From an uncultured Pseudomonadota bacterium (lineage in GTDB: Bacteria > Pseudomonadota > Alphaproteobacteria > Rs-D84): 64,000 nt of DNA. The position numbers and the translations under genes were made by a program. Position 1 is the first letter of the stretch. Each line of letters begins with the position of its first letter. Below, piece after piece: positions 11,200 to 64,000 of this stretch. A model generated the notes under the pieces. It had not been told where the DNA came from. It did not search any database and saw only the letters and a list, made by a program, of their open reading frames with translations. The DNA lies in assembly GCA_949298405.1 (NCBI GenBank), contig CASFWA010000002.1, positions 10,048-74,047 on the forward strand, read 5' to 3'.

Positions 11200-11269
11200 A
11201 TATTCTCCTTTTTAAGGAAGATTAGCACTATTTAAAACGAAAAGTTATAAACTTTTTATAAGAAATTTA

Positions 11270-50546: not shown

Positions 50547-51386
50547 ATGCCAAAAGTATCTGTTTTAACACCGATTTATAATACCAACCCAGAATTCTTA
50601 AAAGAATGTATAGAAAGTATTTTAAATCAAACATTTAAAGACTTTGAATTCTTAATACTTAACGATAGTCCAGATAATATAGAAATAGAAAAAGTTGTAA
50701 AATCTTATAACGACAAAAGAATAAAATATATAAAAAATGAAAAAAACCTTGGGATATCTGAGTCAAGGAATAAACTTTTAAGCCTTGCACAAGGTGAATA
50801 CTTGGCAATATTTGATCACGATGATATATCTATGCCTGATAGACTTGAAGTAGAGGTTAAATATCTTGACGCAAATCCAGAAATAGGCGCGGTTTCTGGT
50901 TGGTTGGAGCTTTTCGATAAAAAAACAGAAATATGGTACACCCCAGAATTTGATATAGATATAAAAAAGATTATGACGGAAGATTGTTCTTTCTTTCATA
51001 CCGCAGCAATGATAAGACGAGATATATTAATTAATAACAACATCAAATACGAACCTTATTATACACCAGCGGAAGATTATCGTCTGTGGGCCAGATTGAT
51101 GAACGTAACAAAATTTTATAATTTTCAACGCCCCCTAGTAAAATATCGTTGGTTTGAAAATAATACAACAAACCTACAAGCAGAAAAAATGTCAAGGGCA
51201 CATGATGCCATACAAATAGACATAATAAATGAATTTCCTGCTTATAGATGGGCTTTTTTGCAAATGAAAAACCAACAAACAATATTCCGCCTTCGGTTAT
51301 TCAATTTGATACCAATATTAAAAATAAAAAACAACTGGGTATTATTATTTGAGTTTATCCCAGTATTCAAAATAAAATGGAAATAA
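50547..51386 (+). CDS. family 2 glycosyltransferase
   Basis: VSVLTPIYNTNPEFLKECIESILNQT...LNDSPD and a DxD motif (FDHDDIS). Confidence 0.8.
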   Translation: MPKVSVLTPIYNTNPEFLKECIESILNQTFKDFEFLILNDSPDNIEIEKVVKSYNDKRIKYIKNEKNLGISESRNKLLSLAQGEYLAIFDHDDISMPDRLEVEVKYLDANPEIGAVSGWLELFDKKTEIWYTPEFDIDIKKIMTEDCSFFHTAAMIRRDILINNNIKYEPYYTPAEDYRLWARLMNVTKFYNFQRPLVKYRWFENNTTNLQAEKMSRAHDAIQIDIINEFPAYRWAFLQMKNQQTIFRLRLFNLIPILKIKNNWVLLFEFIPVFKIKWK

Positions 51387-51410
51387 ATTCTATATCAAAA
51401 TGAGTTTATC

Positions 51411-53528
51411 ATGAAACGAACATTTAACACAGATTCTTTAAAGATAAAAAAATATACCTTTTTTGGTATTTGCTTTCTTACAAAAATTTGGGAATATAAT
51501 TTTAGAGAAACAAGATTATTAGGAATAACTATAAGTCGTAAAAATAATAAACAATTTATAATAAAAAATTCTATAAATTTTAATAATATATTTAATAAAA
51601 ATATAATAAAAACAAATAAGACTATAGATATAATTATTCCTATATATAACGGTGCAGAACATTTAGACCCACTATTAAACTCTGTAATTTCTAATACAGA
51701 TTTAAACTATAAACTTTTCTTAATAGATGATAAAAGCACGGATTCAAATGTTGAACAAATACTAAAAAAATGGCATGACAAATTTGGCAACAAGGCAATA
51801 ATAATACATAATGAACAAAACTTAGGTTTCGTTCAAACTGTTAATAAAGCTTTATCATATACGACAAACGATGTTGTAATATTAAACACAGATGTCAGAG
51901 TCCCTAAAAACTGGGCTTCCAGGCTTATGCAACCTATTTTTGAAAATCCTAATGTTGCGTCCGTCACACCCTTTTCAAACGCGGCAACCATTTTTTCTTT
52001 CCCCAAGCAATGGGAAAACAATGAATTAGAAATACCACTGCAAGAAATAGACGATATATTTTCTAAATTAAATTTTGATAATAATATTATACAACAACTA
52101 CAATTTCCTACTGGTGTTGGTTTTTGTATGGCGATGAGTCGTAAAGCTTTAAACAAAATAGGTGTTTTTGATTCTGTATTTGGTCGGGGATATGGTGAAG
52201 AAAATGATTGGTGCATGAGAGCCGTAAAAGCAGGTTTTATAAATACATTGGCGTATAATCTTTTTGTTTACCATAAACATGGTGGAAGTTTTTTGACAAA
52301 CGAAAAAAAGCTTTTATGTGAAAACCATAATAAAATTATAAAAAAACGTTATACTAGTTATGATAAAAATATAAAATTAGCTGCTTCAAGTTATAATTAT
52401 CAATCTATACTTTTTTTATTAAAACTTCTTTATTTTAATAAAATTGTAAACACAACTGTTTTGTATGTAGACCATTCTTTGGGTGGGGGAACAGAGTCTT
52501 ATTTTCTTGATCAAATCTCTACAATTAAGAATCAAACCCTGATAATAAGAATGCAGTATTTTCACGATTATAGAAAATATGTATTAAGTATTATTTATAA
52601 AGATACTAATGTTACACTAGGTGGTTTATTATTAAATGATTTGCTACTGCTTTTAAAAGAACTAAATTTTACTGAAATTATTATAAATAATCTTGTAGGA
52701 TATGAAAATACATTAGAGTTTCTTGATATAATAAAAAATTTAAAAAATAAAAATACCATATTAACGATGCGCGGTCATGATTATCAAGCAATATGCCCCT
52801 TTTTTACTTTACTTAATTACAAAAAGGATTTTTGTAATTTGCCATTGCCAGAAAAATGTAAACAATGTTTTTTAAATAATTCATTCGGTACAGATAAAGA
52901 ATCAGAAGTAATCTTGAAATCTGGCGCAACCAGTATAACAGAATGGCGCGCAAAATGGAACGATTTTTTAGAAAAATATCTTGATGAACTTATCGTTTTT
53001 TCTGAAAGTGGGAAAAATTTATTTTTAAAAACTTACCCTTGTTTAAAAGACAAAATAAAAATTATACCGCACAAGATTTTACCGCTACGCAAAGTCAATA
53101 TAAAACCATCTAAAAAACATACAATTGGTATTTTAGGTAATATTTATAGTGCTTCAAAAGGTTTAAATATTTTATCTGAAATCATAAAATTACAGAAAAA
53201 ATATAATATTTCTGTAATACTTATAGGTAACACAAATAAAAATATAAAAATAAAAAAAACAGGTACATACAAAAGAGAAGAACTTCCTAATCTTTTAGAA
53301 AAATATAAAATAGATATAATATTTATACCATCTGTCTGGCCAGAAACATTTTCATACACTACATCAGAAGCAATGGAAATGGATATCCCAGTAGCATGTT
53401 TTGATTTGGGTGCACCAGCAGAAAGGGTGATAAATTATAAAAAAGGATTGATTATAGATAAAATAAACGCAGAATATGCGTTACAAAAAATTCTCTTATT
53501 TATTAAAAAGCAAAAGAAAAATTTATGA
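51411..53528 (+). CDS. two-domain glycosyltransferase (N-terminal GT2 plus C-terminal GT1/GT4-like)
   Basis: IDIIIPIYNGAEHL...LIDDKSTD is the GT2 domain. The C-terminal ...ETFSYTTSEAMEMDIPVACFDLGAPAE is the GT-B EX7E motif. The true start may be internal. Confidence 0.65.
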   Translation: MKRTFNTDSLKIKKYTFFGICFLTKIWEYNFRETRLLGITISRKNNKQFIIKNSINFNNIFNKNIIKTNKTIDIIIPIYNGAEHLDPLLNSVISNTDLNYKLFLIDDKSTDSNVEQILKKWHDKFGNKAIIIHNEQNLGFVQTVNKALSYTTNDVVILNTDVRVPKNWASRLMQPIFENPNVASVTPFSNAATIFSFPKQWENNELEIPLQEIDDIFSKLNFDNNIIQQLQFPTGVGFCMAMSRKALNKIGVFDSVFGRGYGEENDWCMRAVKAGFINTLAYNLFVYHKHGGSFLTNEKKLLCENHNKIIKKRYTSYDKNIKLAASSYNYQSILFLLKLLYFNKIVNTTVLYVDHSLGGGTESYFLDQISTIKNQTLIIRMQYFHDYRKYVLSIIYKDTNVTLGGLLLNDLLLLLKELNFTEIIINNLVGYENTLEFLDIIKNLKNKNTILTMRGHDYQAICPFFTLLNYKKDFCNLPLPEKCKQCFLNNSFGTDKESEVILKSGATSITEWRAKWNDFLEKYLDELIVFSESGKNLFLKTYPCLKDKIKIIPHKILPLRKVNIKPSKKHTIGILGNIYSASKGLNILSEIIKLQKKYNISVILIGNTNKNIKIKKTGTYKREELPNLLEKYKIDIIFIPSVWPETFSYTTSEAMEMDIPVACFDLGAPAERVINYKKGLIIDKINAEYALQKILLFIKKQKKNL

Positions 53529-54274
53529 AAAAAGTTGTTTATACATGCATAACAGGGAATTATGATGATGTCCCTGAATATAAATATATAGATAAAACCT
53601 GGGATTATTTCTTATTTACTGATAATCCAGAATTATTAAAACATAAAAAAATTAAACATTGGAATATTGAACCGCTTGTTTATAAAAAACTTGATAATGT
53701 TCGGAATGCCCGTTGGCATAAAATAAATACCCACATACTATTTCCTGATTATAATTATAGTTTATGGTTAGATGCTAACATTTCAATAAACACAAAAAAT
53801 ATTTTTGAAAAATGTAACAAATATATAAAAAAGGATGTATTAATTGCTATTCCTTTACATCCAGAAAGAAATTGTATTTATAAAGAAGCAGAAATAATAA
53901 AACAATTAAATATCGATTATCCCCAAAAAGTTAATAAAGAAATGCGTTTTTTGCAAAAGAATCATTACCCACAAAATAATGGATTATCAGAAACATGTAT
54001 AATATTTAGACAACACAATAAAATTCAACCGATGTTAGATTTATGGTGGGAAATGATAAAAAAATACTCTAAAAGAGACCAATTGTCTTGTAATTTTGCA
54101 GCTTGGAGGTATAATATAAAAATAATCCCAATGTATAACCAAGCAGGTGCACACAGAACAAATAAAGATTTTACTTTTTCGTATAAATCAACTCATAATC
54201 AAGATAAAATTAATACAAATAAAATCAAAAAAATTTTATGTTTTTTGACAAATTATTTAAAGGTTCAAAAATGA
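53525..54274 (+). CDS. putative glycosyltransferase-like protein (TGNYD motif)
   Basis: 249 aa. N-terminal VYTCITGNYDDV. Family assignment uncertain. Confidence 0.45.
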   Translation: MKKVVYTCITGNYDDVPEYKYIDKTWDYFLFTDNPELLKHKKIKHWNIEPLVYKKLDNVRNARWHKINTHILFPDYNYSLWLDANISINTKNIFEKCNKYIKKDVLIAIPLHPERNCIYKEAEIIKQLNIDYPQKVNKEMRFLQKNHYPQNNGLSETCIIFRQHNKIQPMLDLWWEMIKKYSKRDQLSCNFAAWRYNIKIIPMYNQAGAHRTNKDFTFSYKSTHNQDKINTNKIKKILCFLTNYLKVQK

Positions 54275-55137
54275 TTTTTAATCGTATATCAAAGGAAAAA
54301 GAAAAAGCAAATGATGCTAATTTATTAATTTATTCTTATGCTAACAAAAAATATTATGAATTTGCAATTTTATACCCTATATGGGTACTTCAAAATAATC
54401 AAGATGCAAAAATAGAAATTGCTTTAGAAGATAAAGATTTATTCTATAAAAAGTATTCTCATTTAATAGAATATTACGAAAAAAACTATACCAATAAAGT
54501 ACTTTTTACACAGATAGATAAAAAAGTTATACAATACCCTGCTGGAACAATACGTTTTATAACACAACCAAAAAGCAAAGCAAAATATGTATACATAGGA
54601 GATATAGATATAATTGTTCTTCACAATATCTGTACCCTGCACATTCCTAACATAGAAAAAAATGCCCTGGATTTTTCAAATATAAAACGCATCGGACAAA
54701 ATAAGTTATCAGGTTTGCACTTCATTGAATATGAAAAAATGTACCCTGTTGAAAAAATAAAAAAGAAGTTAAAACATATAAATGATGAAGAACTTCTTTA
54801 TATTCTAATGAAAAATAAAGGTTATAAGATTCCTGATGAAAATAAAAACAAATATCGTCCACTGTGCGGAATACATATCAGTTATTTTTCGCGCCCGCCA
54901 TTAAAAACTTTAACCACAAAAGACGAAGAAACCACATTTCCTTCATGGTATGATAATTGTAATAATGAAAAACTTCTTTATTCAGAAATAGAAAATTTTT
55001 TTAATTTAAGATATTCAGAAAAAATAAAAAATTTCTATAATAATATAAAAGAAACAGATATAGATTTGCGTAGAATAATTCAATTTATAGATTTATTTGC
55101 TTTTTATTTGAAAAACAATCAACAACTTTTAAGTTAA
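54238..55137 (+). CDS. hypothetical protein in the glycosyltransferase cluster
   Basis: 299 aa; an alternative start is at 54271. Very AT-rich. Confidence 0.4.
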   Translation: MFFDKLFKGSKMIFNRISKEKEKANDANLLIYSYANKKYYEFAILYPIWVLQNNQDAKIEIALEDKDLFYKKYSHLIEYYEKNYTNKVLFTQIDKKVIQYPAGTIRFITQPKSKAKYVYIGDIDIIVLHNICTLHIPNIEKNALDFSNIKRIGQNKLSGLHFIEYEKMYPVEKIKKKLKHINDEELLYILMKNKGYKIPDENKNKYRPLCGIHISYFSRPPLKTLTTKDEETTFPSWYDNCNNEKLLYSEIENFFNLRYSEKIKNFYNNIKETDIDLRRIIQFIDLFAFYLKNNQQLLS

Positions 55138-55176
55138 AAACCGAAGAGGGAAATAAGCCCTCTTCGGTTTTTTATT
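55137..55176. terminator. bidirectional rho-independent terminator
   Basis: AAAACCGAAGAGGG-AAATAAG-CCCTCTTCGGTTTTTTATT. Confidence 0.8.
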
Positions 55177-55654
55177 CCGCAACATAACCGCATATACGCC
55201 AGGAACGAAGGAGATTTGTAAAATCAGTACCAGTACCAGTACGAGCTTTGACAACCATACCCGTTGTTGTTTTATTCGTACAAACTATATGTATACCGTA
55301 ATTATCATCGCCCCCACACGCAATATATGAATATTTATTATCAGCCATTTCCAGTTTAAACGTTATATTTTTTTCACCAGATGACATTATACCGCCCTGT
55401 TCTACCCAACCGCTTTTGTACTTGCGGTACCAACTGCTGCCGTCGGAGGCTCGCCAAGTTTCCGTCACATAATCCGCGGTCATTATATCTGCTGGTATCT
55501 CACTCTTTTTCGCCAATACCGTTCCACCTGCCGTTTCTCCGTCATGAACGCGCAAAGTATTGTTCGTCGTATCCATTGTCACTTCCCCAATGGCACCAGT
55601 AAATTCTTCGTGCTGGTCCGCACTACCACGACGAAACTGCACACATTTCGACAT
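55172..55654 (-). CDS. phage tail-fibre-like protein with Mtd_N-type N-terminal domain (second copy)
   Basis: The N-terminus VQFRRGSADQHEEFTGAIGEVTMDTTNNTLRVHDGETAGG shares the same motif as 32287-32859 and the BPP-1 Mtd N-terminus. Confidence 0.55.
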   Translation of the reverse strand: MSKCVQFRRGSADQHEEFTGAIGEVTMDTTNNTLRVHDGETAGGTVLAKKSEIPADIMTADYVTETWRASDGSSWYRKYKSGWVEQGGIMSSGEKNITFKLEMADNKYSYIACGGDDNYGIHIVCTNKTTTGMVVKARTGTGTDFTNLLRSWRICGYVAE

Positions 55655-55701
55655 CTTATAATCCTTTTTATACTATCTTTTGTGTTTGTAAAAATTGAAA
55701 C

Positions 55702-56064
55702 TTGATGCTAGGATTTAAAATTATGACATCTTATACAACTGGCTTATTTACTGAATTTTTAACTCGTTTATTTCTTCGAATTCATGGCTTTCGTATCTTA
55801 AAATCCCGCTATGTGACGGGGCACTATACTAACCGTGCAGAAATTGATATAATTGCGAAAAAAGCAAACCTTATAGTCTTCGTCGAAGTAAAAAAACGAC
55901 GTACTACTATTGATGCTTTTAATGCTATATCTGCTACACAAGTAAAACGCCTAAGACGGGCTGCAGAAACTTTTTTAGCCCAAAATCACTGGTCTGGTGA
56001 TGCCAGATTCGATGTCGTTATATTTACTCCTTTCAAGATTCAATGGTTTAAGGGTGCTTTATAA
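55702..56064 (+). CDS. YraN/UPF0102-family endonuclease-like protein
   Basis: 120 aa. AEIDIIAKKANLIVFVEVKKR resembles the YraN PD-(D/E)xK-like core. Confidence 0.6.
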   Translation: MMLGFKIMTSYTTGLFTEFLTRLFLRIHGFRILKSRYVTGHYTNRAEIDIIAKKANLIVFVEVKKRRTTIDAFNAISATQVKRLRRAAETFLAQNHWSGDARFDVVIFTPFKIQWFKGAL

Positions 56065-56128
56065 ACTTGAAAAAATGACTTTTTTCTTTTATAATCATTA
56101 TACGCTTTTTACAGAAAAGGAGTAAAAT

Positions 56129-56278
56129 ATGAAAAAAGTTATGTTGGCTCTGTTCGCAGTTTTGACTTTGGCTGCTTGCACAGGTTCTTATAAACAAGGT
56201 AACTGTGAATACGATTTCTTGCTTCACAAAGATATTTCTATTTCTAAACTTATCGGCAACGCAACTGGTGGTTGCTAA
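56129..56278 (+). CDS. small lipoprotein (49 aa)
   Basis: Not in the ORF track. AAAGGAG RBS, MKKVMLALFAVLTLAAC lipobox, followed by a terminator. Confidence 0.4.
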   Translation: MKKVMLALFAVLTLAACTGSYKQGNCEYDFLLHKDISISKLIGNATGGC

Positions 56279-56283
56279 AAAAG

Positions 56284-56311
56284 TTAATCCCGCGAAATCG
56301 CGGGATTTTTT
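56284..56311. terminator. rho-independent terminator
   Basis: AATCCCGCG-AAA-TCGCGGGATTTTTTATT. Confidence 0.75.
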
Positions 56312-56567
56312 ATTCTATAACCGCCGTTTTTATCAAGGCTACATCCTCTTTTATCCCATCCAGTTTTATTTGCAATTGCCCTATACCCGTTTCTAATATA
56401 GTCGCACGATTCTCTAGTGCGGTTATTCTGTGGTCCGCTCGTTCAAGCTCTGCCAGTGAGGAATCTTGACGCGCAACCCAATATATCATCCCAGCAATAA
56501 ATGCTATCAGGAACCAACTGTCTCGCAAAACGTCAATTATACCAGTTAGCCCCGTCTGATTTGTCAT
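56310..56567 (-). CDS. small membrane/coiled-coil protein, hypothetical (last gene of the phage-like operon)
   Basis: 85 aa with one TM helix. Its start overlaps the stop of the upstream ORF. Confidence 0.35.
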   Translation of the reverse strand: MTNQTGLTGIIDVLRDSWFLIAFIAGMIYWVARQDSSLAELERADHRITALENRATILETGIGQLQIKLDGIKEDVALIKTAVIE

Positions 56568-56758
56568 TATTTGCCCCGTTCTATCATGTTCTCTATCAAG
56601 TGAACAAGTGCTCGTTGTGCCTCTAGACCGCGTAATTCTGAATCACTGGCGTTCGGACCTAGGACCCTTTCTATGGTTATTTTACGTAAGTGCGCCAATA
56701 CCGCTGCACCCGCGGATGTGGAAAAGGCACGTGTAAAGTTCTGTTCTATCTCTTTCAT
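56567..56758 (-). CDS. hypothetical 63-aa protein downstream of the portal gene
   Basis: Short ORF translationally coupled to its neighbours. Confidence 0.3.
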   Translation of the reverse strand: MKEIEQNFTRAFSTSAGAAVLAHLRKITIERVLGPNASDSELRGLEAQRALVHLIENMIERGK

Positions 56759-56768
56759 TGTCCTCTCC

Positions 56769-57992
56769 TTATATCAAAGTTTCTTCTAATGCCATCTGCG
56801 CAATCGGGGCAATATATTTTAATTCTGCATCGCTATGTAGGGATATTTTATCTATCACCCCACGACGCGATAATATCTGCAGTCCCCTTTCACATAGTGG
56901 TCTGATAAACTCATGCAGCAATCTGCCGTATGTCGCACCAAGTATTCGCATCATATCCGCATTACGCGCCATTATCTCGGTCGCGGTCATCTCTTTTTCA
57001 GATAACAAACCTAATCTATCCGCTAGTAATGCATGACGAATTCGCTCGCGCAGGTCCTTTAATATTATCTGCGACACATCAAAATCTGCACCAGAAGAAA
57101 GCGGTGTTAAACCCGAACTACCTACTGCTTTCGGAATAATCGCACCAGGGGTTAGGTTTATATTTGATAGATTTATTACCCCGTCATCATCGGCCTGCCA
57201 AATACCTGAAACTGCTATTGTTGCATTCTTTAGCACTAATTCTACAACCTTGTTCGCAGTTTTTATATCGGGTAAAGCACGTAATACGGGACCACGCCCA
57301 TATAACTCGCCACTGGCAACAGACCAGCGAAAAATTAAGTACGGGTTCGTTTCAAATGTACCTGTTGATACAATGTTGTTTTCTATATCCCCACCGACAT
57401 CTAACCATGCGGTAAAATCTTTACCAACAAGACTTTGCACAAGTCGCAAAGGCATATCTGGGTCTTTCTTTATAGTATCCCGAATATCCGCAGGCGGTGT
57501 CCAAGACGGGTACTTTTCCATAACTTCGCGCGCAGGCATACTTGCAGTATGAAAAACTGCGTTCGGCAATATCGCAATATCCTTCATAGGTATCGCAGTA
57601 AAGGAAAATGCAGAATCTGCACCAATTGGATTTTCTGCCATAAATAAACAAGCAGTTCCTAAAATCACTAAATCTAAATAACACTGATGTATAGTTGTAT
57701 AAAAGTTAGAATCATTCAGGTTTGCGCGTAATGCCGCTGCAGCAGTTGTAGCATCTGGTGAATCTTCACTTTCTGGTATCAATGAAATCCATAAAGATTC
57801 TGGTGGTGTAAGCAAAGAATACATTGACGCAGCCAAATTATCTACTGCATCAGCAGCAGTAGCATCAAACAATGTTGCGGCATCATCGTCTTCTGTCGGC
57901 ATTGTATAGCGCAATGCACTATCCCATCTATTTAACCATGGCGCACGCATATCCAGCGCACGACGATACATCTGTTGTAAATTATTTTGCAT
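56769..57992 (-). CDS. phage portal protein (HK97/GTA-like size class)
   Basis: 407 aa, lying immediately downstream of the terminase nuclease fragment. Length and the acidic/helical C-terminus are consistent with a portal. The assignment rests on context and overall resemblance. Confidence 0.55.
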   Translation of the reverse strand: MQNNLQQMYRRALDMRAPWLNRWDSALRYTMPTEDDDAATLFDATAADAVDNLAASMYSLLTPPESLWISLIPESEDSPDATTAAAALRANLNDSNFYTTIHQCYLDLVILGTACLFMAENPIGADSAFSFTAIPMKDIAILPNAVFHTASMPAREVMEKYPSWTPPADIRDTIKKDPDMPLRLVQSLVGKDFTAWLDVGGDIENNIVSTGTFETNPYLIFRWSVASGELYGRGPVLRALPDIKTANKVVELVLKNATIAVSGIWQADDDGVINLSNINLTPGAIIPKAVGSSGLTPLSSGADFDVSQIILKDLRERIRHALLADRLGLLSEKEMTATEIMARNADMMRILGATYGRLLHEFIRPLCERGLQILSRRGVIDKISLHSDAELKYIAPIAQMALEETLI

Positions 57993-58012
57993 GTTTGCTC
58001 CTTTTAAAATTA

Positions 58013-58876
58013 TTACAACTTAAATTCTGTGTTCGCAGTAAACGGTCTGAACCCCTGCCCCAGTGGTCTAACAGGTGAAGGCAATGCACAAATTGCACCC
58101 GCAACTGCATCAATACCATCATCATGACCACTGCTTCCTAGTGGTGTCCAACCTAACATTTCCGATAAAAGAGGCGTAAATTGAACGCTACGATGAGCAT
58201 GCAACCTGCCCGTTGTCAAAATAGGTTCTATTGCATCTAAGATTCTATTTTCTTTATTCTTGTTATTTAAAATCTTCTGAACTTGAATTTTTATACCGCG
58301 CTGTTTAGCGACTGTTCTCATTATCTCTGGCAGCGCGTTTCCCATACCATTTGTTTCTATATAAATTTTATATAAAGAATGCTTTAATAAAAAATCTAAG
58401 GCCATTTCACACTGACGAGCCAATGGATAATTATCTTCATCAGAAACCAGCAAATATTTAATATCATGTATAAAAAAATGTTTATTCTTATCATCTCGAT
58501 ATATCAATACGCAAACACTGCCGTCTGATTTCCTTCGCCCAGACGACGGGTCCCAGTATGCAGTAACACCTGTTATAAAAAATTCTCCTATCTTTGCATT
58601 TCGTGGTTCAAAATCTTCGTCATATAGATGCAAAGAGTCTGGGTCAAGACGTGCCCTGTCTGGTGCGACAAACCGCAACATCATCTGAGCAGAAAAGTAC
58701 CTTTCCCCAACCGTTTTTCGCAATTCTTCTATTTTTTCTATTGAAAACAGCTCTGGCCATGCCGGTTTTCCGTCAGAATCAATTATTGGTATCCTTAATT
58801 CCCTAAAACCGTTCAAAAAAGGCGTTGAAAAAGCAAAATTTTTATATAACATATCTGACATGGACTTCACTCCCAA
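58013..58876 (-). CDS. large terminase subunit, C-terminal nuclease half (fragment of a split gene)
   Basis: 287 aa. PAWPELFS...GERYFSAQMM linker, then RNase-H-like nuclease motifs TAYWDPSS, SVCVLIYRDD, IYIETNGMG and HDDGIDAVAGA. The ATPase half is missing from this ORF and is found at 62190-62798. Confidence 0.7.
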   Translation of the reverse strand: MGVKSMSDMLYKNFAFSTPFLNGFRELRIPIIDSDGKPAWPELFSIEKIEELRKTVGERYFSAQMMLRFVAPDRARLDPDSLHLYDEDFEPRNAKIGEFFITGVTAYWDPSSGRRKSDGSVCVLIYRDDKNKHFFIHDIKYLLVSDEDNYPLARQCEMALDFLLKHSLYKIYIETNGMGNALPEIMRTVAKQRGIKIQVQKILNNKNKENRILDAIEPILTTGRLHAHRSVQFTPLLSEMLGWTPLGSSGHDDGIDAVAGAICALPSPVRPLGQGFRPFTANTEFKL

Positions 58877-60410
58877 AACCTTGCCAACGAATTTAGAAGC
58901 AGAACAGGCTGTTCTGGCCGCGGTTCTTATGAATAACCGCGCATTGGAAAAGGTTTCTGAATTCCTAAAACCTGAGCATTTTTCTCATCCTGCACACCAA
59001 GAAATTTATAAACTTGCAGAAAGACAATTCGCTTCTGGGGTTCCTTTTGACATAATCACCGCAAAAAACTATCTGGACCAACAAGGTGTTTTGGAATCTG
59101 TCGGTGGTATCGATTATTTAACTCAACTATCTAGCGCAGGTGCAACTGTTGTAAATGTTGAACAATATGGTCGCATTGTTTATGAAAATGCTTTACGTCG
59201 TGATTTGATAAATCTTGGTCAATCTATTACTGATGCTGCTTTTGTCGAAGACTTGGACAACCCTGTTTCTGCACAAATAGAAACAGCCGAACAAAAACTT
59301 TTTGAAATGGCTTCTGCTGGTGTTTCAGAACGCGAAGTATCTTCTATCGCTACCGCATTGCAAAGTGCTTTATTAGAAGCAGAAATCGCCTATAAAGCAG
59401 ACGGTAAATTATCAGGTCTGACAACTGGTTTAACTGCATTGGATAAATCTATTAGTGGTCTGCATCACTCTGACCTTATAATAATCGCAGGTCGTCCCGC
59501 GATGGGTAAAACCACCCTTGCGATGAATATCGCTTTTAACGCGGCGAACGCTATTCTTTACGGGCGCGCGAACGAAAAATATAAGGGGGCTGTTGCTTTC
59601 TTTAGTCTTGAAATGTCTGCGTCTCAGTTGGCGGCACGTGTGCTGTCTTCACAATCAAAAGTACCTGCATCGTCTATGCGCGAAGGTAATCTGACTGATG
59701 AAGACTTTTTAAAAATGTCCCAGTATTCTGCGGCTATCGGTAAAGTGCCACTGTTTATAGATGACACACCTGGTATGTCTGTACCTATGATTAGAACACG
59801 TGCAAGAAGGCTTGCAAGAAAATGTGGCGGTATCGCGCTTATTGTTATTGACTACTTGCAACTTATGACTTCACCTGGTGGTAAACGAAGCGAAAACCGC
59901 GTTCAAGAAATTTCAGAAATTACCCGTGGTCTTAAAATGCTTGCAAAAGAACTGGACGTTCCTGTCATCGCACTATCACAATTATCACGTAGTGTTGAAT
60001 CGCGTGATGATAAACGCCCGCAGTTGGCAGACTTGCGTGAATCTGGTTCCATTGAGCAAGATGCTGATATTGTTATGTTTACTTACCGTGAAGAATACTA
60101 TCTTGAAAATCGTGACCCTTCACAAAGAATTTCTGGTAATACAAACGAAAAAATTATCGAAAGTTATCAGAAACGGTTGGAACGCGCACGCGGTAAGGCA
60201 GATGTTATAATCGGTAAAAACCGTCATGGCAGACCTGAAACTGTACGTCTTGCTTTCTTCGGAGATTACAGTTTGTTCGACAACCTCGACGAGATGGAAG
60301 GAAGACCTGTTGAAGAGTTCTCTTCTTCACCCGCACAAATATCAGATGTTTCAGATTTCCAACCTGAACCCATCGATACAAACGAAATTCCTGACGATAT
60401 GCCACTGTAA
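58860..60410 (+). CDS. dnaB: replicative DNA helicase DnaB
   Basis: 516 aa. N-terminal DnaB domain, Walker A GRPAMGKTT, and a full RecA-like C-terminal domain. It overlaps the terminase-C start by 17 nt, on the opposite strand. Confidence 0.9.
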   Translation: MDFTPKTLPTNLEAEQAVLAAVLMNNRALEKVSEFLKPEHFSHPAHQEIYKLAERQFASGVPFDIITAKNYLDQQGVLESVGGIDYLTQLSSAGATVVNVEQYGRIVYENALRRDLINLGQSITDAAFVEDLDNPVSAQIETAEQKLFEMASAGVSEREVSSIATALQSALLEAEIAYKADGKLSGLTTGLTALDKSISGLHHSDLIIIAGRPAMGKTTLAMNIAFNAANAILYGRANEKYKGAVAFFSLEMSASQLAARVLSSQSKVPASSMREGNLTDEDFLKMSQYSAAIGKVPLFIDDTPGMSVPMIRTRARRLARKCGGIALIVIDYLQLMTSPGGKRSENRVQEISEITRGLKMLAKELDVPVIALSQLSRSVESRDDKRPQLADLRESGSIEQDADIVMFTYREEYYLENRDPSQRISGNTNEKIIESYQKRLERARGKADVIIGKNRHGRPETVRLAFFGDYSLFDNLDEMEGRPVEEFSSSPAQISDVSDFQPEPIDTNEIPDDMPL

Positions 60411-60478
60411 TCATTTTGTGCTTGATAAACCTCTAAAAATTGACTAATATTTTGTCAAGAAATTCAAGGGGTTTTACA

Positions 60479-61486
60479 ATGGCTCAAGAAGAAATCATCT
60501 TTCCAAATAATATAAGAAATATTCGTCTGGCAAACGGCATGAAAATGACCGAGTTGGCACGTCAGGCAAACTTATCCCTGTCCGCTGTTTCAAAAATTGA
60601 AAAAGGCGTACGTCGCTTGAACCAAAAACAACTGTTAAATATATGTAATATTCTTGGTTGTAAATTATCTGACATTTTCATCAAGGAATCTGATGAAGTT
60701 GCTAATCAGTGGCAAGACGAAATTAAACGCCGTCTAACCGATAATGAAGATAGCGGTTTAAAAATATTCGGAAGCGGTCTGCGTAAAATTCGTCAGCAAT
60801 CTGGTAAAACTATCGCCCAAGCCGCAAAAGATGCAGGTATGACATTGTCCGTATACCATAAAATAGAAGTCGGACAACGTGAAATTTACCAGAATGAAAT
60901 TGAACCTTTGGCAAACTCATTTAAACTTACCGCGGAGACTTTGTTCGATAAAATCGCAAACTTATATAAATCTGGCGAACTTAATAAACAAATTAACAAA
61001 GTCAAAGAACGCGTAAAATCTGTACTTATCCCAGGGAATCCTTTATCTGGTATCGATATGCATAGCAGTTTATACGGTGCAAAATTATATGATAGCGCAC
61101 GTAAAAAGTTAGTACCTGTTTTCGGCACACCTGATGGCAAGGCTATCGCATTCAAAAAATCTGACAAGACAATGATTGTAGCCCCGATGATGTTAGAAGG
61201 TCGCAAAGGGATTTATGCAGTTATTCCTAATTCTAAACGTTTGAGTGGTTTCATACCTGAAAAATCTTATCTTTTCGTTGATTCCGAAACACCTGCACAA
61301 GTTGGCGACTTGGCAATATGTATCGATACAGATTTTGAATCAATTGATGCCGAAGAAACTGCAACCGCACAGGTGGTTAGTGTCAAACAAGATTCAAAAG
61401 GTAAAATATACGGACAAATATCTTCACCAGAAGAAAAAATTGTCGGCAAATCTTTACATAAAGTCGTTATGATTGTTATGGAATAA
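60479..61486 (+). CDS. tandem-HTH (XRE-family) transcriptional regulator with cI/LexA-like C-terminal domain
   Basis: Two HTH_3-like segments (IRNIRLANGMKMTELARQANLSLSAVSKIEKG and LRKIRQQSGKTIAQAAKDAGMTLSVYHKIEVG) and a C-terminal beta-rich domain. A GDSM-type Ser/Lys dyad is not clearly present. The ORF track starts at 60440. Confidence 0.55.
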   Translation: MAQEEIIFPNNIRNIRLANGMKMTELARQANLSLSAVSKIEKGVRRLNQKQLLNICNILGCKLSDIFIKESDEVANQWQDEIKRRLTDNEDSGLKIFGSGLRKIRQQSGKTIAQAAKDAGMTLSVYHKIEVGQREIYQNEIEPLANSFKLTAETLFDKIANLYKSGELNKQINKVKERVKSVLIPGNPLSGIDMHSSLYGAKLYDSARKKLVPVFGTPDGKAIAFKKSDKTMIVAPMMLEGRKGIYAVIPNSKRLSGFIPEKSYLFVDSETPAQVGDLAICIDTDFESIDAEETATAQVVSVKQDSKGKIYGQISSPEEKIVGKSLHKVVMIVME

Positions 61487-61512
61487 TCTTTATACTGTAG
61501 GGGGGATACAAA

Positions 61513-62193
61513 ATGAAAACTAAAATTAGTGTGACAGCACAAAGATTATTAAATTTATATCGCCAAGAACACGTAATTTTTGGTGGTTGGGCTGCCGTTA
61601 ATTCTGTATTTATAAAAGAAGCAACCCCCGAAGTTCTGAAAGAATTACGAGATATGCCAACTGGTAAAAACCTAATAAAGCATATTGAAAATCTACGCAG
61701 TGGAAAAACCCCAATGGATTCTATTGAACGTGACTTACTTCCTTATGGTGGTATGATGACCGAAAGTGTCGCAACCATTTATTTGACCCCAAGCGAGTGG
61801 GAAGAATTAGAAACGGGAATCAACAACTTTATTCCTACGGAAGAGGGATTGAACACTTTACAACAATTAAACATTGTAAAAAAATTCGGGGACCAATGGT
61901 TAGTTGCAATTAAAGCGGCTCTGGCTGCTAGACCAGAATTATTAGAAAAATGGTCTGTTGTCAAAAAAACTTATCGCGCATACTACTTATGGAAAGTCGC
62001 CAGTGACATGATTAATCAACCTTTGTCCGAACGTGCACGCGCCCAATTACAAGCAGATATGCCTGAATATGAAACATATCTTCCAATGTTCGGTAATGAA
62101 GGCACAGAACTATTAGAAAAATTACGTTCCTTCATCACAACCATGAAACCTATTGATACCGATAACGCACCAGATGCGCCAACGTCTATTTAA
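61513..62193 (+). CDS. hypothetical protein
   Basis: 226-aa ORF. Its stop overlaps the stop of the convergent terminase-N fragment by 4 nt. Confidence 0.4.
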   Translation: MKTKISVTAQRLLNLYRQEHVIFGGWAAVNSVFIKEATPEVLKELRDMPTGKNLIKHIENLRSGKTPMDSIERDLLPYGGMMTESVATIYLTPSEWEELETGINNFIPTEEGLNTLQQLNIVKKFGDQWLVAIKAALAARPELLEKWSVVKKTYRAYYLWKVASDMINQPLSERARAQLQADMPEYETYLPMFGNEGTELLEKLRSFITTMKPIDTDNAPDAPTSI

Positions 62194-62798
62194 GAAAACT
62201 CTTCTTTTGTTCTATAAATCGTGTCCATTGTATGTGGGGTGCCAATGTATATCATCGAACCAGTCGGAGATAAAATAAAATCCAATTCCCGCAGTCGTTC
62301 TCTTAACGCTTCCCGTTTCTGAGCGGTATTACATGTATTTGGCACCTCTACATCATCGCAAATTATTAAGTCAGCACGCATACCAGTTATATTTCCATGT
62401 ACACCCTGACAAATTACAGAAGGCTCACGAATACCTATTGGTCTGTTTACCGTTATTCTGCCCTGTGCCCACTCTTTCTTTACATTAGGCACTAAATCCA
62501 CACAACGCGGATGATTTTCTAGTATATGCCGAATATGAGCCACCATACGCGAAGATAAACCACTTTCTGCAGATAATATTAAAATCCTAGTTTCTGGTCT
62601 AAGATACAATGCACATGCTGCAAAAATCCCCACAACTGTAGATTTTCCAGAATGACGAAATGCCATTAACAAACCTTTATGAGGTTCTTCATCTAAAACG
62701 GAAACCAGAAATTTCATAATTTCTTTATGATGCGAAGGTGTTGTAAACCCAAGAACTTCGTTCCATTCATCTAAAAAATTATAAAAGTCCGTAATCAT
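62190..62798 (-). CDS. large terminase subunit, N-terminal ATPase half (fragment of a split gene)
   Basis: 202 aa. Walker A AFRHSGKST, Walker B ADLIICDDVE, and IYIGTPHTMD (the conserved GTP..H segment after the coupling motif). Ends in a stop; no nuclease domain. Confidence 0.7.
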   Translation of the reverse strand: MITDFYNFLDEWNEVLGFTTPSHHKEIMKFLVSVLDEEPHKGLLMAFRHSGKSTVVGIFAACALYLRPETRILILSAESGLSSRMVAHIRHILENHPRCVDLVPNVKKEWAQGRITVNRPIGIREPSVICQGVHGNITGMRADLIICDDVEVPNTCNTAQKREALRERLRELDFILSPTGSMIYIGTPHTMDTIYRTKEEFS

Positions 62799-63360
62799 CT
62801 TTTGTTTCGTTTGGCGCAGGCTCTGTTATACTTCCATAATCATTGATTAACTTAGGTAATGCGTTATCTAATACAGATAACAGATTGTTATATAACCCCA
62901 GTACACTACCACCTGATAATTTATCTTCTATAACCTGAAGGTTATAATTTAAAAAGTTCATCACATTATCGTGTATATTCGCCCATTCAGTTAAATTAAT
63001 ATCTATGGAATGTAAATCCTTAAATGCTTCTAGTAAAAAATTAAAATCTGAATTTAAACTTTCAGGGTCTATCTTCGATGTCGGCTGATAATCTACAACA
63101 CGTGACAAAGAAATCTGACGAAATATATCTATCTTACTTCCTTCTGATGGGGCAGTAGAAAAAATAACCGTACCACCGTCAAAATCATCATTGGCATAAA
63201 CAGAGTATAAAGTATCTGATACAATCTTTTCGTCTATGGCAACCCTTATATCTGCATCTTGAAAAAATGGAAATGCGAATAAAAACTCAGATGTCGTGCC
63301 GTCACCAACATAAGATATTTTATACATAATCGCCCCCTTTTTACCCCAATAAATCGTCAA
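62779..63360 (-). CDS. phage-like hypothetical protein; N-terminus resembles the podovirus tail-fibre N-terminal motif
   Basis: 193 aa. KISYVGDGTTSEFLFAFPFF parallels the T7 gp17 N-terminus (LTYQLDGSNRDFNIPFEY). Weak. Confidence 0.3.
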   Translation of the reverse strand: MTIYWGKKGAIMYKISYVGDGTTSEFLFAFPFFQDADIRVAIDEKIVSDTLYSVYANDDFDGGTVIFSTAPSEGSKIDIFRQISLSRVVDYQPTSKIDPESLNSDFNFLLEAFKDLHSIDINLTEWANIHDNVMNFLNYNLQVIEDKLSGGSVLGLYNNLLSVLDNALPKLINDYGSITEPAPNETKDDYGLL

Positions 63361-63688
63361 ATCTGTCTAATATAGATTTCAATAAATTAGGTTTTGACGC
63401 TTTTATCTTGTTAAGTTTTTCCGCGTTGTTTTTACGCTTTGTTTCATAGGGTTCTTCTGTTTCTTGTTTCAATCTTTTTAATACTGCACCTTCTGTCATA
63501 CTTTTCCCAGACATACCTGATGCACCATACTTTGCACGCTGAGTCGCCAAAGTTTTCTTTACTAAATTAGTCTTCTCTTTTTCATCGGCCGCCATGTCAG
63601 CAAGAACTTTCTGACGTTCTGTTTCTGCTTCTTTCTTTGATTTTTTATAATCTAAAATATCTGTCACATCTGATACAAGTTGTCCCAT
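63341..63688 (-). CDS. hypothetical charged/coiled-coil protein (phage-like region)
   Basis: 115-aa ORF overlapping the downstream gene by 20 nt. Confidence 0.35.
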   Translation of the reverse strand: MGQLVSDVTDILDYKKSKKEAETERQKVLADMAADEKEKTNLVKKTLATQRAKYGASGMSGKSMTEGAVLKRLKQETEEPYETKRKNNAEKLNKIKASKPNLLKSILDRFDDLLG

Positions 63689-63706
63689 GATTTTCTCCCT
63701 TGTTTT

Positions 63707-63919
63707 TTAAACTAGATAATATCCATACATGCTTACTGATAATACTGTTGCTGGTAATTGCTCGCTGCTTTTAATTGTCCATGGCGCTTCCATACAATTA
63801 CGTTGGATTCCAAATAAATTAATGGAAACATCCCCACTATACCCAAGCGAACTTTCCTCAAATACTTCATTAGGTAAATCTGCCCGTGCATCATTTATAA
63901 ACAATGTCTTGGTATTCAA
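63707..63919 (-). CDS. hypothetical protein (phage-like region)
   Basis: 70-aa ORF. Further minus-strand coding sequence may continue to the window end. Confidence 0.25.
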   Translation of the reverse strand: MNTKTLFINDARADLPNEVFEESSLGYSGDVSINLFGIQRNCMEAPWTIKSSEQLPATVLSVSMYGYYLV

Positions 63920-64000
63920 AACACGCGCCGCTATTTTCCTTAATCTTATTTTACTTGCATTATGACCTGATGCGCGTAATGGTAATGCAGACGCACAGAA

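What the first reader, a model, noticed from the sequence alone, without database searches (positions are those of the whole stretch)
58013..62798. Large-terminase gene split into ATPase and nuclease halves by a 3.3 kb opposite-strand cassette that carries dnaB
Two minus-strand ORFs together reconstitute a complete TerL. ORF 62190-62798 holds Walker A (FRHSGKST), Walker B (DLIICDDVE) and the conserved GTPH segment, then stops. ORF 58013-58876 begins with the TerL linker (PAWPELFS, GERYFSAQMM) and carries the full RNase-H-like nuclease motifs (YWDPSS; IYIETNGMG; HDDGIDAVAGA). They lie in the correct order and orientation, 3.3 kb apart. The intervening DNA is on the opposite strand and encodes a full-length DnaB helicase, a tandem-HTH cI-like regulator and a 226-aa protein. 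Its ORFs abut both terminase fragments, with a 17-nt overlap on one side and a 4-nt overlap on the other. Either a precise insertion of a replication/regulation module into a prophage or GTA-like terminase gene, or a rearranged prophage whose DnaB has been domesticated. If this is the cell's only dnaB, an essential replication gene sits inside a phage packaging gene.
Basis: partly seen in the sequence, partly recalled or inferred. Interest (0 to 1): 0.8.

Follow-up and report, generated by a model that had tools for sequence, protein, structure and literature searches.

The report
Conserved two-piece terminase enclosing dnaB
In a whole clade of small-genome gut bacteria (Candidatus Enterousia), the DNA-packaging enzyme gene of a domesticated T7-like virus-particle gene cluster has been cut in two by a host operon carrying the replication helicase dnaB. 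Both halves have been kept intact by selection ever since, so this is an ancient working arrangement, not a broken prophage.

Summary
Two minus-strand ORFs are the contiguous N and C parts of one T7-type large terminase (TerL). They are separated by about 3.4 kb of plus-strand dnaB, a double-HTH regulator and a 226-aa protein (p226).

It is not a recent disruption. The same architecture occurs in every sufficiently long locus of 80 GTDB species representatives and about 60 IMG/VR contigs of Ca. Enterousia and relatives (Alphaproteobacteria, order Rs-D84, genomes about 0.75-1 Mb). TerL-C identity falls to 50% across them.

- **Selection:** both halves are uninterrupted, with dN/dS about 0.065 and invariant ATPase and nuclease motifs.
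- **Setting:** the halves sit in a compact, integrase-less, roughly 12 kb cluster (endolysin-like, scaffold, capsid, adaptor, nozzle, fibre, TerL, portal) at a fixed chromosomal site.
- **Relatives at or below 40% identity:** all have an intact TerL.
- **Origin of the cassette:** the HTH-p226 pair heads a lolCDE-like operon with no phage genes in outgroup alphaproteobacteria. DnaB passes the cellular replicative-helicase equivalogs and fails the phage-DnaB model.
- **Junctions:** the dnaB and terL-C start codons overlap in CATG. A conserved promoter-like site for dnaB lies in the first codons of terL-C.

Best reading: a candidate podovirus-type gene transfer agent with a two-chain terminase. 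Particle production, trans-assembly of the halves and dnaB uniqueness are untested.

The parts
63707..64000 (-). 3' end of the tail nozzle gene (T7 gp12-like, 571 aa in relatives), cut by the window end
   Evidence: The 70-aa ORF here matches the C-terminus of the 571-aa protein of L002/L005. That protein matches phrog_376 tail protein (4e-85) and weakly Pfam Phage_nozzle.
63341..63688 (-). p115, conserved small cluster protein of unknown role
   Evidence: Present in 75 loci, dN/dS 0.22. No family found.
62779..63360 (-). Short tail-fibre protein with a T7 fibre N-terminal (tail-attachment) domain. The start is probably the ATG about 33 nt inside this ORF.
   Evidence: Pfam Phage_T7_tail 3e-06, phrog_1640 9e-16. 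Present in about half of the related loci.
62190..62798 (-). TerL-N: ATPase core of a T7-type large terminase (Walker A RHSGKST, Walker B DLIICDDVEVP, C-motif GTPH). It stops 5-6 residues after the C-motif region.
   Evidence: NF033889 223 bits (cutoff 150), positions 1-192; phrog_38 positions 271-460. Aligns to T7 gp19 residues 50-215. Uninterrupted in 77 of 78 loci, dN/dS 0.065, motifs invariant.
61513..62193 (+). p226: all-helical host protein of unknown function, last gene of the cassette. Its stop codon shares TTAA with the terL-N stop codon.
   Evidence: dN/dS 0.057. AF2 pLDDT 74 with no fold match. Only 58 representatives at 50% identity in 1.84e9 proteins. Homologues sit downstream of the HTH gene in host operons of outgroups.
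60479..61486 (+). Double-HTH (XRE-family) regulator with a beta-rich C-terminal domain of unknown family. The conserved start is MAQEEIIF; the mechanical ORF starts at 60440.
   Evidence: Two HTH_3 domains. The N-terminal HTH is almost invariant across 14 divergent loci. Outgroup homologues are 36-40% identical over the full length. The C-terminal domain has no Pfam or PDB match.
58860..60410 (+). dnaB, cellular-type replicative DNA helicase, first gene of the cassette
   Evidence: Pfam DnaB and DnaB_C. Passes NCBIfam equivalogs NF006606 (613 > 540) and TIGR00665 (507 > 385), fails phage_DnaB (409 < 499). 77-99% identical across loci, dN/dS 0.038.
58825..58852 (+). Sigma-70-like promoter for dnaB (TTGAAA-16-TAACAT) embedded in terL-C codons about 4-12. 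The -10 hexamer ends 7 nt before the dnaB ATG, so the mRNA is probably leaderless.
   Evidence: Consensus scan. Nucleotide-level conservation in all loci. Synonymous-site conservation is 0.85-0.92 against a gene mean of 0.54, the strongest island in the locus. Function is inferred, not shown.
58013..58861 (-). TerL-C: remaining ATPase/lid segment plus RNase-H-like nuclease (YWDPS, ETNG, HDDGxDA) of the same terminase. It has a new 14-residue N-terminus (MSDMLYKNFAFSTP) and a Shine-Dalgarno-like GGGAG inside dnaB codons 4-6.
   Evidence: Pfam Terminase-T7_RNaseH-like and Terminase_6C; phrog_38 positions 468-709. Uninterrupted in 84 of 84 loci, dN/dS 0.066, catalytic residues invariant. Start context.
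56769..57992 (-). Portal (T7 head-to-tail connector type), 407 aa
   Evidence: Pfam Head-tail_con 2e-81. 79-99% identical across loci, dN/dS 0.041.
56567..56758 (-). Bbp19-like small phage protein (63 aa)
   Evidence: Pfam Phage_Bbp19 4e-10 on the L005 orthologue. Conserved position.
56310..56567 (-). p85, last conserved gene of the cluster
   Evidence: Present in 67 or more loci, dN/dS 0.068.
56286..56307 (.). Palindromic GC-rich hairpin (AATCCCGCGAAATCGCGGGATT) with T-runs, terminator-like on both strands, at the end of the cluster
55172..55654 (-). 160-aa tail-fibre-like protein with an Mtd_N domain. A variable accessory gene beyond YraN (55702-56064, +).
   Evidence: Pfam Mtd_N 5e-13, phrog_9648. 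Present in only some relatives at 39-87% identity.

Best explanation
The window ends inside a vertically inherited, domesticated T7/pelagiphage-like gene cluster of Ca. Enterousia (gut Alphaproteobacteria, order Rs-D84, genomes about 0.75-1 Mb).

Gene order in relatives: endolysin-like p136, p73, scaffold, a Lys-rich HC2-like protein, major capsid, p75, tail adaptor, nozzle, p115, an optional short fibre, TerL, portal, Bbp19-like protein, p85.

Once, in the ancestor of this clade, a 3.4-kb host operon (dnaB, double-HTH regulator, p226) came to lie antisense inside terL, just after the ATPase C-motif. Since then:

- **Shown:** each piece has its own start and stop codon and is kept under strong purifying selection, with every catalytic motif intact.
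- **Inferred:** TerL-N (ATPase core) and TerL-C (lid plus nuclease) are translated separately and re-associate non-covalently into a two-chain terminase. That terminase fills capsids made by the cluster.
- **Inferred:** the particles are GTA-like. The cluster has no integrase, no phage replication genes and no T7-type internal ejection proteins, and it is far smaller than the 32-37 kb genomes of the phages with the most similar capsid protein.
- **Shown by family criteria:** dnaB is a cellular-type replicative helicase.
- **Inferred:** dnaB is the cell's only replicative helicase. It is transcribed, probably as a leaderless mRNA, from a promoter that doubles as the first codons of TerL-C.
- **Consequence of the layout:** dnaB-operon transcription converges head-on with transcription coming from the capsid/tail genes and TerL-N. 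TerL-C and portal need either antisense read-through of the cassette or an unidentified promoter.

The split is most simply a frozen accident. It was tolerated because the two fragments still assemble, and it cannot be reversed because the insert is essential.
For: - **Halves are contiguous parts of one TerL:**
- **Universal architecture:** every sufficiently long locus of 80 GTDB species representatives (TerL-C 58-98% identity) shows it. So do about 60 IMG/VR contigs down to 50% identity and the very divergent L170 and L174.
- **Intact TerL beyond the clade:** all relatives at or below 40% identity have an intact TerL in T7 gene order.
- **Purifying selection:** dN/dS is 0.065 for TerL-N, 0.066 for TerL-C, 0.041 for portal and 0.038 for DnaB. 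ORFs are uninterrupted in 77 of 78 and 84 of 84 loci.
- **Invariant motifs:** Walker A, Walker B, C-motif and nuclease motifs.
- **Fixed chromosomal site:** the context BamA, three genes, YraN, cluster recurs across the full divergence range. Cluster, cassette and genome have the same GC content, 0.39, 0.395 and 0.375.
- **Cluster content and limits:**. Flanking genes are host genes and no integrase is present.
- **Host origin of HTH-p226:**
- **DnaB is cellular-type:**
- **Embedded promoter and overlapping start codons:**
- **No reconstitution machinery:** no intron or other RNA family and no flanking repeats.
Against: - No direct evidence that particles are made, that they package DNA, or that the two polypeptides associate.
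- From my own recollection of T4 gp17 work (not checked here), separately expressed ATPase and nuclease domains did not restore packaging in trans. A working two-chain TerL would therefore be unusual.
- The cut lies inside the ATPase domain, between the C-motif and the lid, which makes trans-assembly more demanding.
- No small terminase was recognised, and no promoter for terL-C/portal was found.
- One relative, L046, has lost the adaptor-to-TerL-N segment and most of the portal, yet keeps TerL-C and the cassette. The structural genes are therefore dispensable in at least one lineage, unless that contig is misassembled.
- Whether dnaB is single-copy was not testable.
Confidence: 0.6

Rival explanations
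1. The halves have been exapted separately. TerL-C acts as a stand-alone nuclease, or TerL-N as a stand-alone ATPase, in some host process such as defence or DNA processing. Alternatively the cluster makes empty or non-DNA-packaging particles, so no two-chain terminase exists.
For: The cut lies inside the ATPase domain. TerL-C evolves faster than TerL-N (58-98% against 72-96% identity). L046 keeps TerL-C although its structural genes are deleted. No TerS was recognised.
Against: Both halves keep every catalytic motif of a packaging motor. They are co-conserved with portal, capsid, scaffold and nozzle in nearly all loci, with similar dN/dS. The portal, the terminase's docking partner, is one of the most constrained genes in the locus, with dN/dS 0.041 against 0.038 for dnaB.
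Confidence: 0.2
2. A mobile temperate phage or satellite carries its own replication module (a phage dnaB, a cI-type repressor and a loader-like protein). The element spreads horizontally among gut alphaproteobacteria.
For: IMG/VR lists about 60 of these loci as 10-12 kb viral contigs. Phage DnaBs at 44-49% identity exist. XRE-type HTH regulators are common in phages.
Against: No integrase or excisionase is present, and the flanks are host genes at a conserved chromosomal site. The HTH-p226 pair is a host operon head in outgroups without phage genes. DnaB passes the cellular equivalogs and fails the phage model. GC content is fully ameliorated. The IMG/VR contigs end at the cluster borders and look like computational provirus calls rather than packaged genomes.
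Confidence: 0.1
3. The intact terL is reconstituted when needed. Possible routes are site-specific excision of the cassette in terminally differentiating producer cells (as with the B. subtilis skin element), RNA splicing or trans-splicing, or protein splicing.
For: The break is exact, with no residues lost. There is a formal parallel with herpesvirus UL15, whose two exons flank antisense genes and are joined by splicing (PMC3079670).
Against: No group I or II intron or any other Rfam family occurs in 55000-64000. No direct or inverted repeats lie at the junctions. No recombinase is present in the cluster or cassette. There are no intein-sized extensions: TerL-N ends 5-6 residues after the homologous region and TerL-C adds only 14. 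TerL-C has its own conserved ATG and Shine-Dalgarno-like sequence. Excision would remove dnaB.
Confidence: 0.07
4. A decaying prophage remnant. A chance insertion or rearrangement killed terL, and the two ORFs are pseudogene fragments.
For: This is the default expectation for a phage gene interrupted by host DNA. The portal is short (407 aa against the 489-position Pfam model) and the T7 internal core proteins are missing.
Against: Intact ORFs are found in 77 of 78 and 84 of 84 loci spanning 50-98% protein identity. dN/dS is about 0.065 and the catalytic motifs are invariant. Pseudogenes would not survive this divergence in genomes of about 90% coding density (PMC12306168).
Confidence: 0.03

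Closest known systems
Gene transfer agents: RcGTA-type GTAs of Alphaproteobacteria, and FpGTA of Faecalibacterium (reported as the first podovirus-like GTA-like element, PMC12946183)
   Same: A compact head/tail/packaging gene cluster without integrase or phage replication genes. It is fixed in the chromosome, vertically inherited across a clade, and under purifying selection. It includes an endolysin-like gene.
   Different: The structural genes are T7/HTVC019P-pelagiphage-like (capsid PF19821, T7 scaffold, gp11/gp12-like tail, T7-type TerL and portal). They are not HK97-siphovirus-like as in RcGTA, and they are unrelated to FpGTA's host phylum. TerL is in two pieces with an essential host operon nested inside. 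Packaging of random host DNA, which defines a GTA, is untested here.
Herpesvirus terminase gene UL15: two exons separated by a roughly 3.5-kb intron that holds UL16 and UL17 on the opposite strand (PMC3079670)
   Same: A terminase ATPase/nuclease gene is interrupted by about 3.4 kb carrying genes on the opposite strand, and the arrangement is conserved across a whole lineage.
   Different: In herpesviruses the pieces are joined by spliceosomal mRNA splicing into one polypeptide. Here there is no intron, each piece has its own start and stop, and the inserted genes are host housekeeping genes. From memory (not checked here), the UL15 exon boundary lies between Walker A and Walker B. Here the cut comes after the C-motif, so the two events are independent.
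Intact T7-type large terminases: T7 gp19 (PDB 8dgc, 4bij) and the TerLs of pelagiphage-like podoviruses and prophages (L149-L168, L085)
   Same: Same family (NF033889, phrog_38), same motifs, and the same neighbouring genes (portal, scaffold, capsid, gp11/gp12-like tail).
   Different: Those are single polypeptides of 479-586 aa. The phages also carry 3-4 kb of internal-core and fibre genes between nozzle and TerL, which are missing here.
Genes split by an intervening element and restored by excision (B. subtilis sigK/skin, 'phage regulatory switches'); phage genes split by introns, inteins or homing-endonuclease insertions
   Same: A coding sequence is interrupted by kilobases of foreign DNA at an exact point.
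   Different: The polarity is reversed: a phage-derived gene is interrupted by host genes. No recombinase, repeats, intron or intein was found. Both fragments appear to be expressed as separate proteins. This comparison rests on general knowledge, not on a test done here.

Membership tests
T7-type phage terminase large subunit (NCBIfam NF033889 / phrog_38) | Full-length match to the family profile above its cutoff, as a single polypeptide | tested here: not met
   TerL-N scores 223 bits (cutoff 150) on profile positions 1-192. TerL-C scores 107 bits on positions 231-500. Together they cover the profile, but on two polypeptides encoded 3.4 kb apart. It is a homologue, not a canonical member.
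T7-type phage terminase large subunit (NCBIfam NF033889 / phrog_38) | ATPase Walker A, Walker B and C-motif, plus RNase-H-like nuclease acidic residues | tested here: met
   RHSGKST, DLIICDDVEVP, GTPH, YWDPS, ETNG and HDDGxDA are invariant or nearly so in 78 and 85 sequences.
Gene transfer agent | Phage-like structural cluster fixed in the host chromosome, vertically inherited, under purifying selection, and lacking integrase and phage replication genes | tested here: met
Gene transfer agent | Particles are produced and package essentially random host DNA, in pieces too small to carry the whole set of GTA genes | not testable with these tools
   This needs VLP sequencing or microscopy of Enterousia-containing samples. 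The organism is uncultured (PMC12306168).
Gene transfer agent | Production under host regulatory control | not tested
   No regulator binding sites or expression data were examined. Only a conserved dnaB promoter-like site was found.
Replicative DNA helicase DnaB (cellular) | DnaB N- and C-terminal domains, scoring above the equivalog cutoffs | tested here: met
   PF00772 and PF03796. NF006606 613 > 540 and TIGR00665 507 > 385. The phage_DnaB exception model scores 409 < 499.
Replicative DNA helicase DnaB (cellular) | The only dnaB in the genome, and therefore essential | not testable with these tools
   There is no second copy in the 64-kb window. Whole Enterousia genomes could not be read. 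A single copy is plausible given the 0.75-1 Mb genomes.
Group I/II intron or intein-interrupted gene | Intron RNA structure, or intein domains flanking the break | tested here: not met
   No Rfam match at E <= 1 other than three chance-level sRNA/leader hits outside the cassette. The fragment ends add only 5-6 and 14 residues.
Excisable intervening element (skin-like / phage regulatory switch) | A site-specific recombinase and repeated att cores at both junctions | tested here: not met
   No repeats at 58.8 kb or 62.2 kb. No recombinase family in the cassette or cluster proteins. Cores shorter than 9 nt cannot be excluded.
Lambda cI / LexA-type (S24) repressor | HTH plus a C-terminal S24 autopeptidase domain | tested here: not met
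   Two HTH_3 domains are present. The C-terminal 156 residues match no Pfam family even at E <= 10, and no PDB sequence by profile search. The single-sequence AF2 model was unusable, pLDDT 34.

The most novel reading that the evidence does not exclude
Ca. Enterousia carries a previously undescribed podovirus-type (T7/pelagiphage-derived) gene transfer agent whose packaging motor is a natural two-chain terminase. The cell's only replicative helicase operon is nested antisense inside terL, so head-on transcription and the overlapping divergent start region couple chromosome replication and particle production. For example, late-operon read-through could silence dnaB in producer cells, or dnaB transcription could keep terL-C and portal off. 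The nesting also makes the element impossible to delete in a genome under reductive evolution.
Probability: 0.3. Interest if true: 0.85.

Novelty: new variant of a known kind. Interest (0 to 1): 0.75.

Why it matters
- **For terminase mechanism:** large terminases are regarded as single-chain motors whose ATPase and nuclease must be covalently linked. A TerL kept in two pieces under strong selection across at least 80 species would be a natural experiment showing where the motor can be cut. It gives a system for testing trans-assembly directly.
- **For GTA biology:** it would add a T7-like, podovirus-type candidate GTA in Alphaproteobacteria. It occurs in bacteria with about 900 genes that still devote about 12 kb to it, which argues for a strong benefit.
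- **For genome evolution:** it is a clear case of an essential housekeeping operon nested inside a virus-derived gene, with overlapping start codons and a promoter that doubles as coding sequence.
- **For databases:** IMG/VR and GenBank hold these bacterial loci as 'viral contigs' or 'Bacteriophage sp.' records.

Tried and rejected
- **Target-site duplications or inverted repeats at the junctions:** none found.
- **Introns or other structured RNAs:** none.
- **C-terminal domain of the HTH regulator:** no Pfam or PDB match. The single-sequence AF2 model failed.
- **An internal antisense promoter for terL-C in the 5' end of dnaB:** the synonymous-site scan shows no strong island there.
- **HTH-p226 still sitting in its ancestral chromosomal position, with phage DNA flanking it:** the window's genes upstream of the cluster (p233, p213, p263) have no detectable homologues next to HTH-p226 in outgroups L169 and L171. 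No support was found, so the idea was dropped.
- **Inversion as the origin of the split:** rejected on geometry. A single inversion with one breakpoint in terL would put TerL-C on the opposite strand from TerL-N.
- **Second dnaB:** only the window could be searched.
- **Literature:** no paper links Enterousia or Rs-D84 to prophages, GTAs or a split terminase.

Full report
**1. The observation**

- TerL-N, 62190-62798(-), 202 aa, matches T7-type large terminase profiles. It covers phrog_38 positions 271-460 and NCBIfam NF033889 positions 1-192 of 500, at 223 bits against a cutoff of 150.
- TerL-C, 58013-58876(-), matches phrog_38 positions 468-709, NF033889 positions 231-500, and the Pfam T7 RNaseH-like terminase domain.
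- The concatenated halves align as a single tblastn piece over 96% of their length to intact TerLs of T7-like phages, at about 28% identity.
- Against an intact 479-aa relative (P0091), the break falls between '...GTPHTFDTIYNISED' and 'GFLQDFKRLKLPI', so nothing is lost or duplicated.
- Against T7 gp19 itself, TerL-N covers residues 50-215. The cut therefore comes just after the ATPase C-motif and before the lid and nuclease. It is not at the domain hinge.

Between the halves, on the plus strand, lie three genes:

- dnaB, 58860-60410
- a protein with two HTH_3 domains, whose conserved start is at 60479
- a 226-aa protein with no family (p226)

**2. Junctions**

- The conserved TerL-C start is the ATG at 58861-58859 (MSDMLYKN..., the 282-aa form seen in databases). 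It overlaps the dnaB ATG (58860-58862) by 2 nt in the palindrome CATG.
- The stop codons of p226 and terL-N share TTAA at 62190-62193.
- The 14 residues that TerL-C has beyond the TerL homology are encoded by DNA carrying a sigma-70-like site. The site is TTGAAA-16-TAACAT at 58825-58852, and it ends 7 nt before the dnaB ATG.
- This stretch is conserved at the nucleotide level in all relatives. It is the only strong island of synonymous-site conservation in the locus: 0.85-0.92 against a mean of 0.54 and an sd of 0.10.
- I read it as the dnaB promoter, probably giving a leaderless mRNA, doubling as coding sequence. This is an inference.
- A GGGAG Shine-Dalgarno-like sequence for TerL-C lies inside dnaB codons 4-6.
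- There are no direct or inverted repeats at the junctions, and no intron or other Rfam family.

**3. It is ancient and under selection**

- *Protein search.* A search with the joined TerL returned hundreds of stand-alone 279-282-aa TerL-C proteins, from 100% down to about 59% identity.
- *GTDB scan.* A scan of GTDB species representatives gave 397 relatives. The best 80 (58-98% identity) are MAGs labelled Candidatus Enterousia or uncultured Alphaproteobacteria.
- *Host lineage.* This is order Rs-D84, with genomes of 0.75-1.0 Mb (PMC12306168).
- *Gene order.* In every locus long enough, the order is nozzle, p115, (fibre), TerL-N, [p226, HTH, DnaB on the other strand], TerL-C, portal, Bbp19-like, p85.
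- *More distant loci.* About 60 IMG/VR contigs extend this to 50% TerL-C identity. L170 and L174 extend it to p226 at about 58% identity.
- *Beyond the clade.* All relatives at or below 40% identity have an intact TerL in the usual T7 order of portal, scaffold, capsid, tail, TerL. These are pelagiphage-like phages and prophages, plus the L085-type mini-cluster.
- *dN/dS.* Values (NG86, pairs with 0.05 < dS < 1) are 0.065 for TerL-N, 0.066 for TerL-C, 0.041 for portal, 0.038 for DnaB, 0.052 for HTH and 0.057 for p226.
- *ORF integrity.* ORFs are uninterrupted in 77 of 78 (TerL-N) and 84 of 84 (TerL-C) loci.
- *Motifs.* Walker A, Walker B, the C-motif and the nuclease motifs are invariant.

A pseudogene reading is excluded.

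**4. What the halves belong to**

In relatives whose contigs run past the window end, the cluster is about 12.3 kb. Its genes, in order:

| Gene | Note |
|---|---|
| p136 | weak Hydrolase_2 / endolysin match |
| p73 | no family |
| scaffold | PF05396 |
| Lys-rich protein | HC2-like |
| major capsid | PF19821; 44% identical to Pelagibacter phage EXVC031P |
| p75 | phrog_18004, no known function |
| adaptor | phrog_394 |
| nozzle | phrog_376 |
| p115 | no family |
| short T7-type fibre | optional; present in about half of relatives |
| split TerL with cassette | this finding |
| portal | Head-tail_con |
| Bbp19-like protein | PF25181 |
| p85 | last conserved gene |

- The cluster has no integrase, no phage replication genes, and none of the 3-4 kb of internal-core and fibre genes that the related phages carry between nozzle and TerL.
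- The flanks are host genes. The context BamA, three genes, YraN (UPF0102), cluster recurs from the window to the most divergent members.
- GC content of cluster, cassette and genome is the same.

This is the signature of a domesticated, vertically inherited element, that is a GTA-like cluster. No paper describes it. A podovirus-like GTA-like element has so far been reported only in Faecalibacterium (PMC12946183).

**5. What the cassette is**

- DnaB passes the cellular equivalogs (NF006606 613 > 540; TIGR00665 507 > 385) and fails the phage_DnaB model (409 < 499). The best phage DnaBs are 44-49% identical.
- p226 belongs to a tiny family, with 58 representatives at 50% identity among 1.84 billion proteins.
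- Its distant members are found in four outgroup alphaproteobacterial loci: L169, L171, L172 and L173.
  - There the order is double-HTH regulator, p226-like protein, about 146 aa, about 427 aa, MacB/FtsX, ABC ATPase.
  - No terminase is present in any of them, and in L169 and L171 no dnaB lies upstream.
  - Their HTH proteins are 36-40% identical to the window's over the full length.
- The regulator and p226 are therefore host genes, not a phage cI/replication module.
- The functions of p226 and of the regulator's C-terminal domain remain unknown.

**6. Mechanism**

*Shown:* two separately delimited ORFs, each under strong constraint and with complete catalytic equipment. They are embedded in a constrained particle-gene cluster. 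A cellular-type dnaB operon is nested antisense between them, with a conserved promoter-like site.

*Inferred:*

- The two chains assemble into a working terminase.
- The cluster makes GTA-like particles.
- dnaB is the sole helicase.
- dnaB-operon transcription converges with late-operon transcription, which may couple the two programmes.

The origin of the split cannot be reconstructed. A single inversion is excluded by geometry, and an insertion or translocation of a host segment is the simplest description. The most economical view is a frozen accident: it was tolerated because the fragments still cooperate, and it is irreversible because the insert is essential.

*Rivals:* separate exaptation of the halves (0.2), a mobile phage or satellite (0.1), reconstitution by excision or splicing (0.07), a decaying remnant (0.03).

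**7. Comparison and novelty**

- The closest functional kind is a GTA. The structural lineage (T7/pelagiphage-like) is new for Alphaproteobacteria, and the defining property, packaging of random host DNA, is untested.
- The closest architectural parallel is herpesvirus UL15. Its two terminase exons flank UL16 and UL17 on the opposite strand and are joined by splicing (PMC3079670). No splicing signal exists here.

I classify the finding as a new variant of a known kind, with interest 0.75.

**8. Caveats**

- All genomes are MAGs. One relative (L046) shows deletions in the structural genes that could be real decay or misassembly.
- The '397 relatives' include an unknown number with intact TerL. 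The split is documented for the 80 retained loci and for the IMG/VR and Logan loci examined.
- The E-values and consensus scans for promoters are suggestive only.

Noticed in passing
window 32287-32859 (+): A second 190-aa ORF with an Mtd_N (major tropism determinant N-terminal) domain lies 23 kb from the cluster. Its first 52 residues are 48% identical to those of the fibre-like gene at 55172-55654. It may be a dispersed accessory fibre gene, as in multi-locus GTAs.
   Followed up: partly
window 50500-55140 (+): A low-GC island (22-30% against about 38-40% elsewhere) of glycosyltransferase genes (GT2, GT2+GT1, TOD1/MUCI70-like) sits between the conserved RseP-BamA block and the cluster. This interval varies in content among relatives.
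   Followed up: partly
L085/L086/L087 (ENA/Logan gut metagenome contigs), about 2.5-12.5 kb of each locus: A different roughly 10-kb mini-cluster has an intact 479-aa TerL. Its order is portal, Bbp19, scaffold, capsid, adaptor, nozzle, TerL, Hydrolase_2 endolysin. It is flanked by an S24 repressor and an HTH gene and lies next to the S10 ribosomal operon of a 40%-GC bacterium. Like the Enterousia cluster it lacks the internal-core genes. It may be a second, independent domestication or a satellite.
   Followed up: partly
L169, L171, L172, L173: In outgroup alphaproteobacteria the double-HTH regulator and the p226-like gene head a conserved operon ending in MacB/FtsX and an ABC ATPase (lolCDE-like). 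In L169 the next gene is a partial paralogue of p226. This hints at an envelope-related role for HTH-p226, which was not pursued.
   Followed up: partly
L046 (MAG RGIG7782, water buffalo), 6100-11330: The cluster has internal deletions. The adaptor is fused at residue 41 to TerL-N residue 59, and the portal is truncated at residue 103 next to p85. The cassette and TerL-C are intact. This is either real decay of the structural genes in one lineage or a misassembly.
   Followed up: partly
L039, L051, L075, L093, L104: between TerL-C and portal: Some relatives carry 0.7-2 kb insertions here that encode small Cys-rich proteins with signal-peptide-like N-termini, mostly on the opposite strand. TerL-C and portal are therefore not always adjacent.
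   Followed up: no
L005 1110-1490; L002 1680-2039 (beyond the window end): A 119-126-aa Lys/Ala-rich protein that hits the histone H1-like HC2 family lies between scaffold and capsid. It could be a DNA-condensing or internal protein, or merely a low-complexity match.
   Followed up: no
IMG/VR loci L089-L148; GenBank MT838907.1 and MT835812.1: Public virus collections hold these bacterial loci as 10-12 kb 'viral contigs' or 'Bacteriophage sp.' records from faeces (capsid 64% and DnaB 49% identity). Their ends coincide with the cluster borders. They are probably computational provirus calls, not packaged genomes.
   Followed up: partly
window 56286-56307: A perfect 9-bp-stem GC-rich palindrome with T-runs on both sides lies between p85 and the region upstream of YraN. 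It looks like a bidirectional terminator closing the cluster.
   Followed up: no
window 62779-63360 and related loci: The short T7-type fibre gene (N-terminal tail-attachment domain only) is present in roughly half of the relatives and cleanly absent in the rest, where p115 abuts TerL-N. This suggests modular gain or loss of the receptor-binding apparatus.
   Followed up: no
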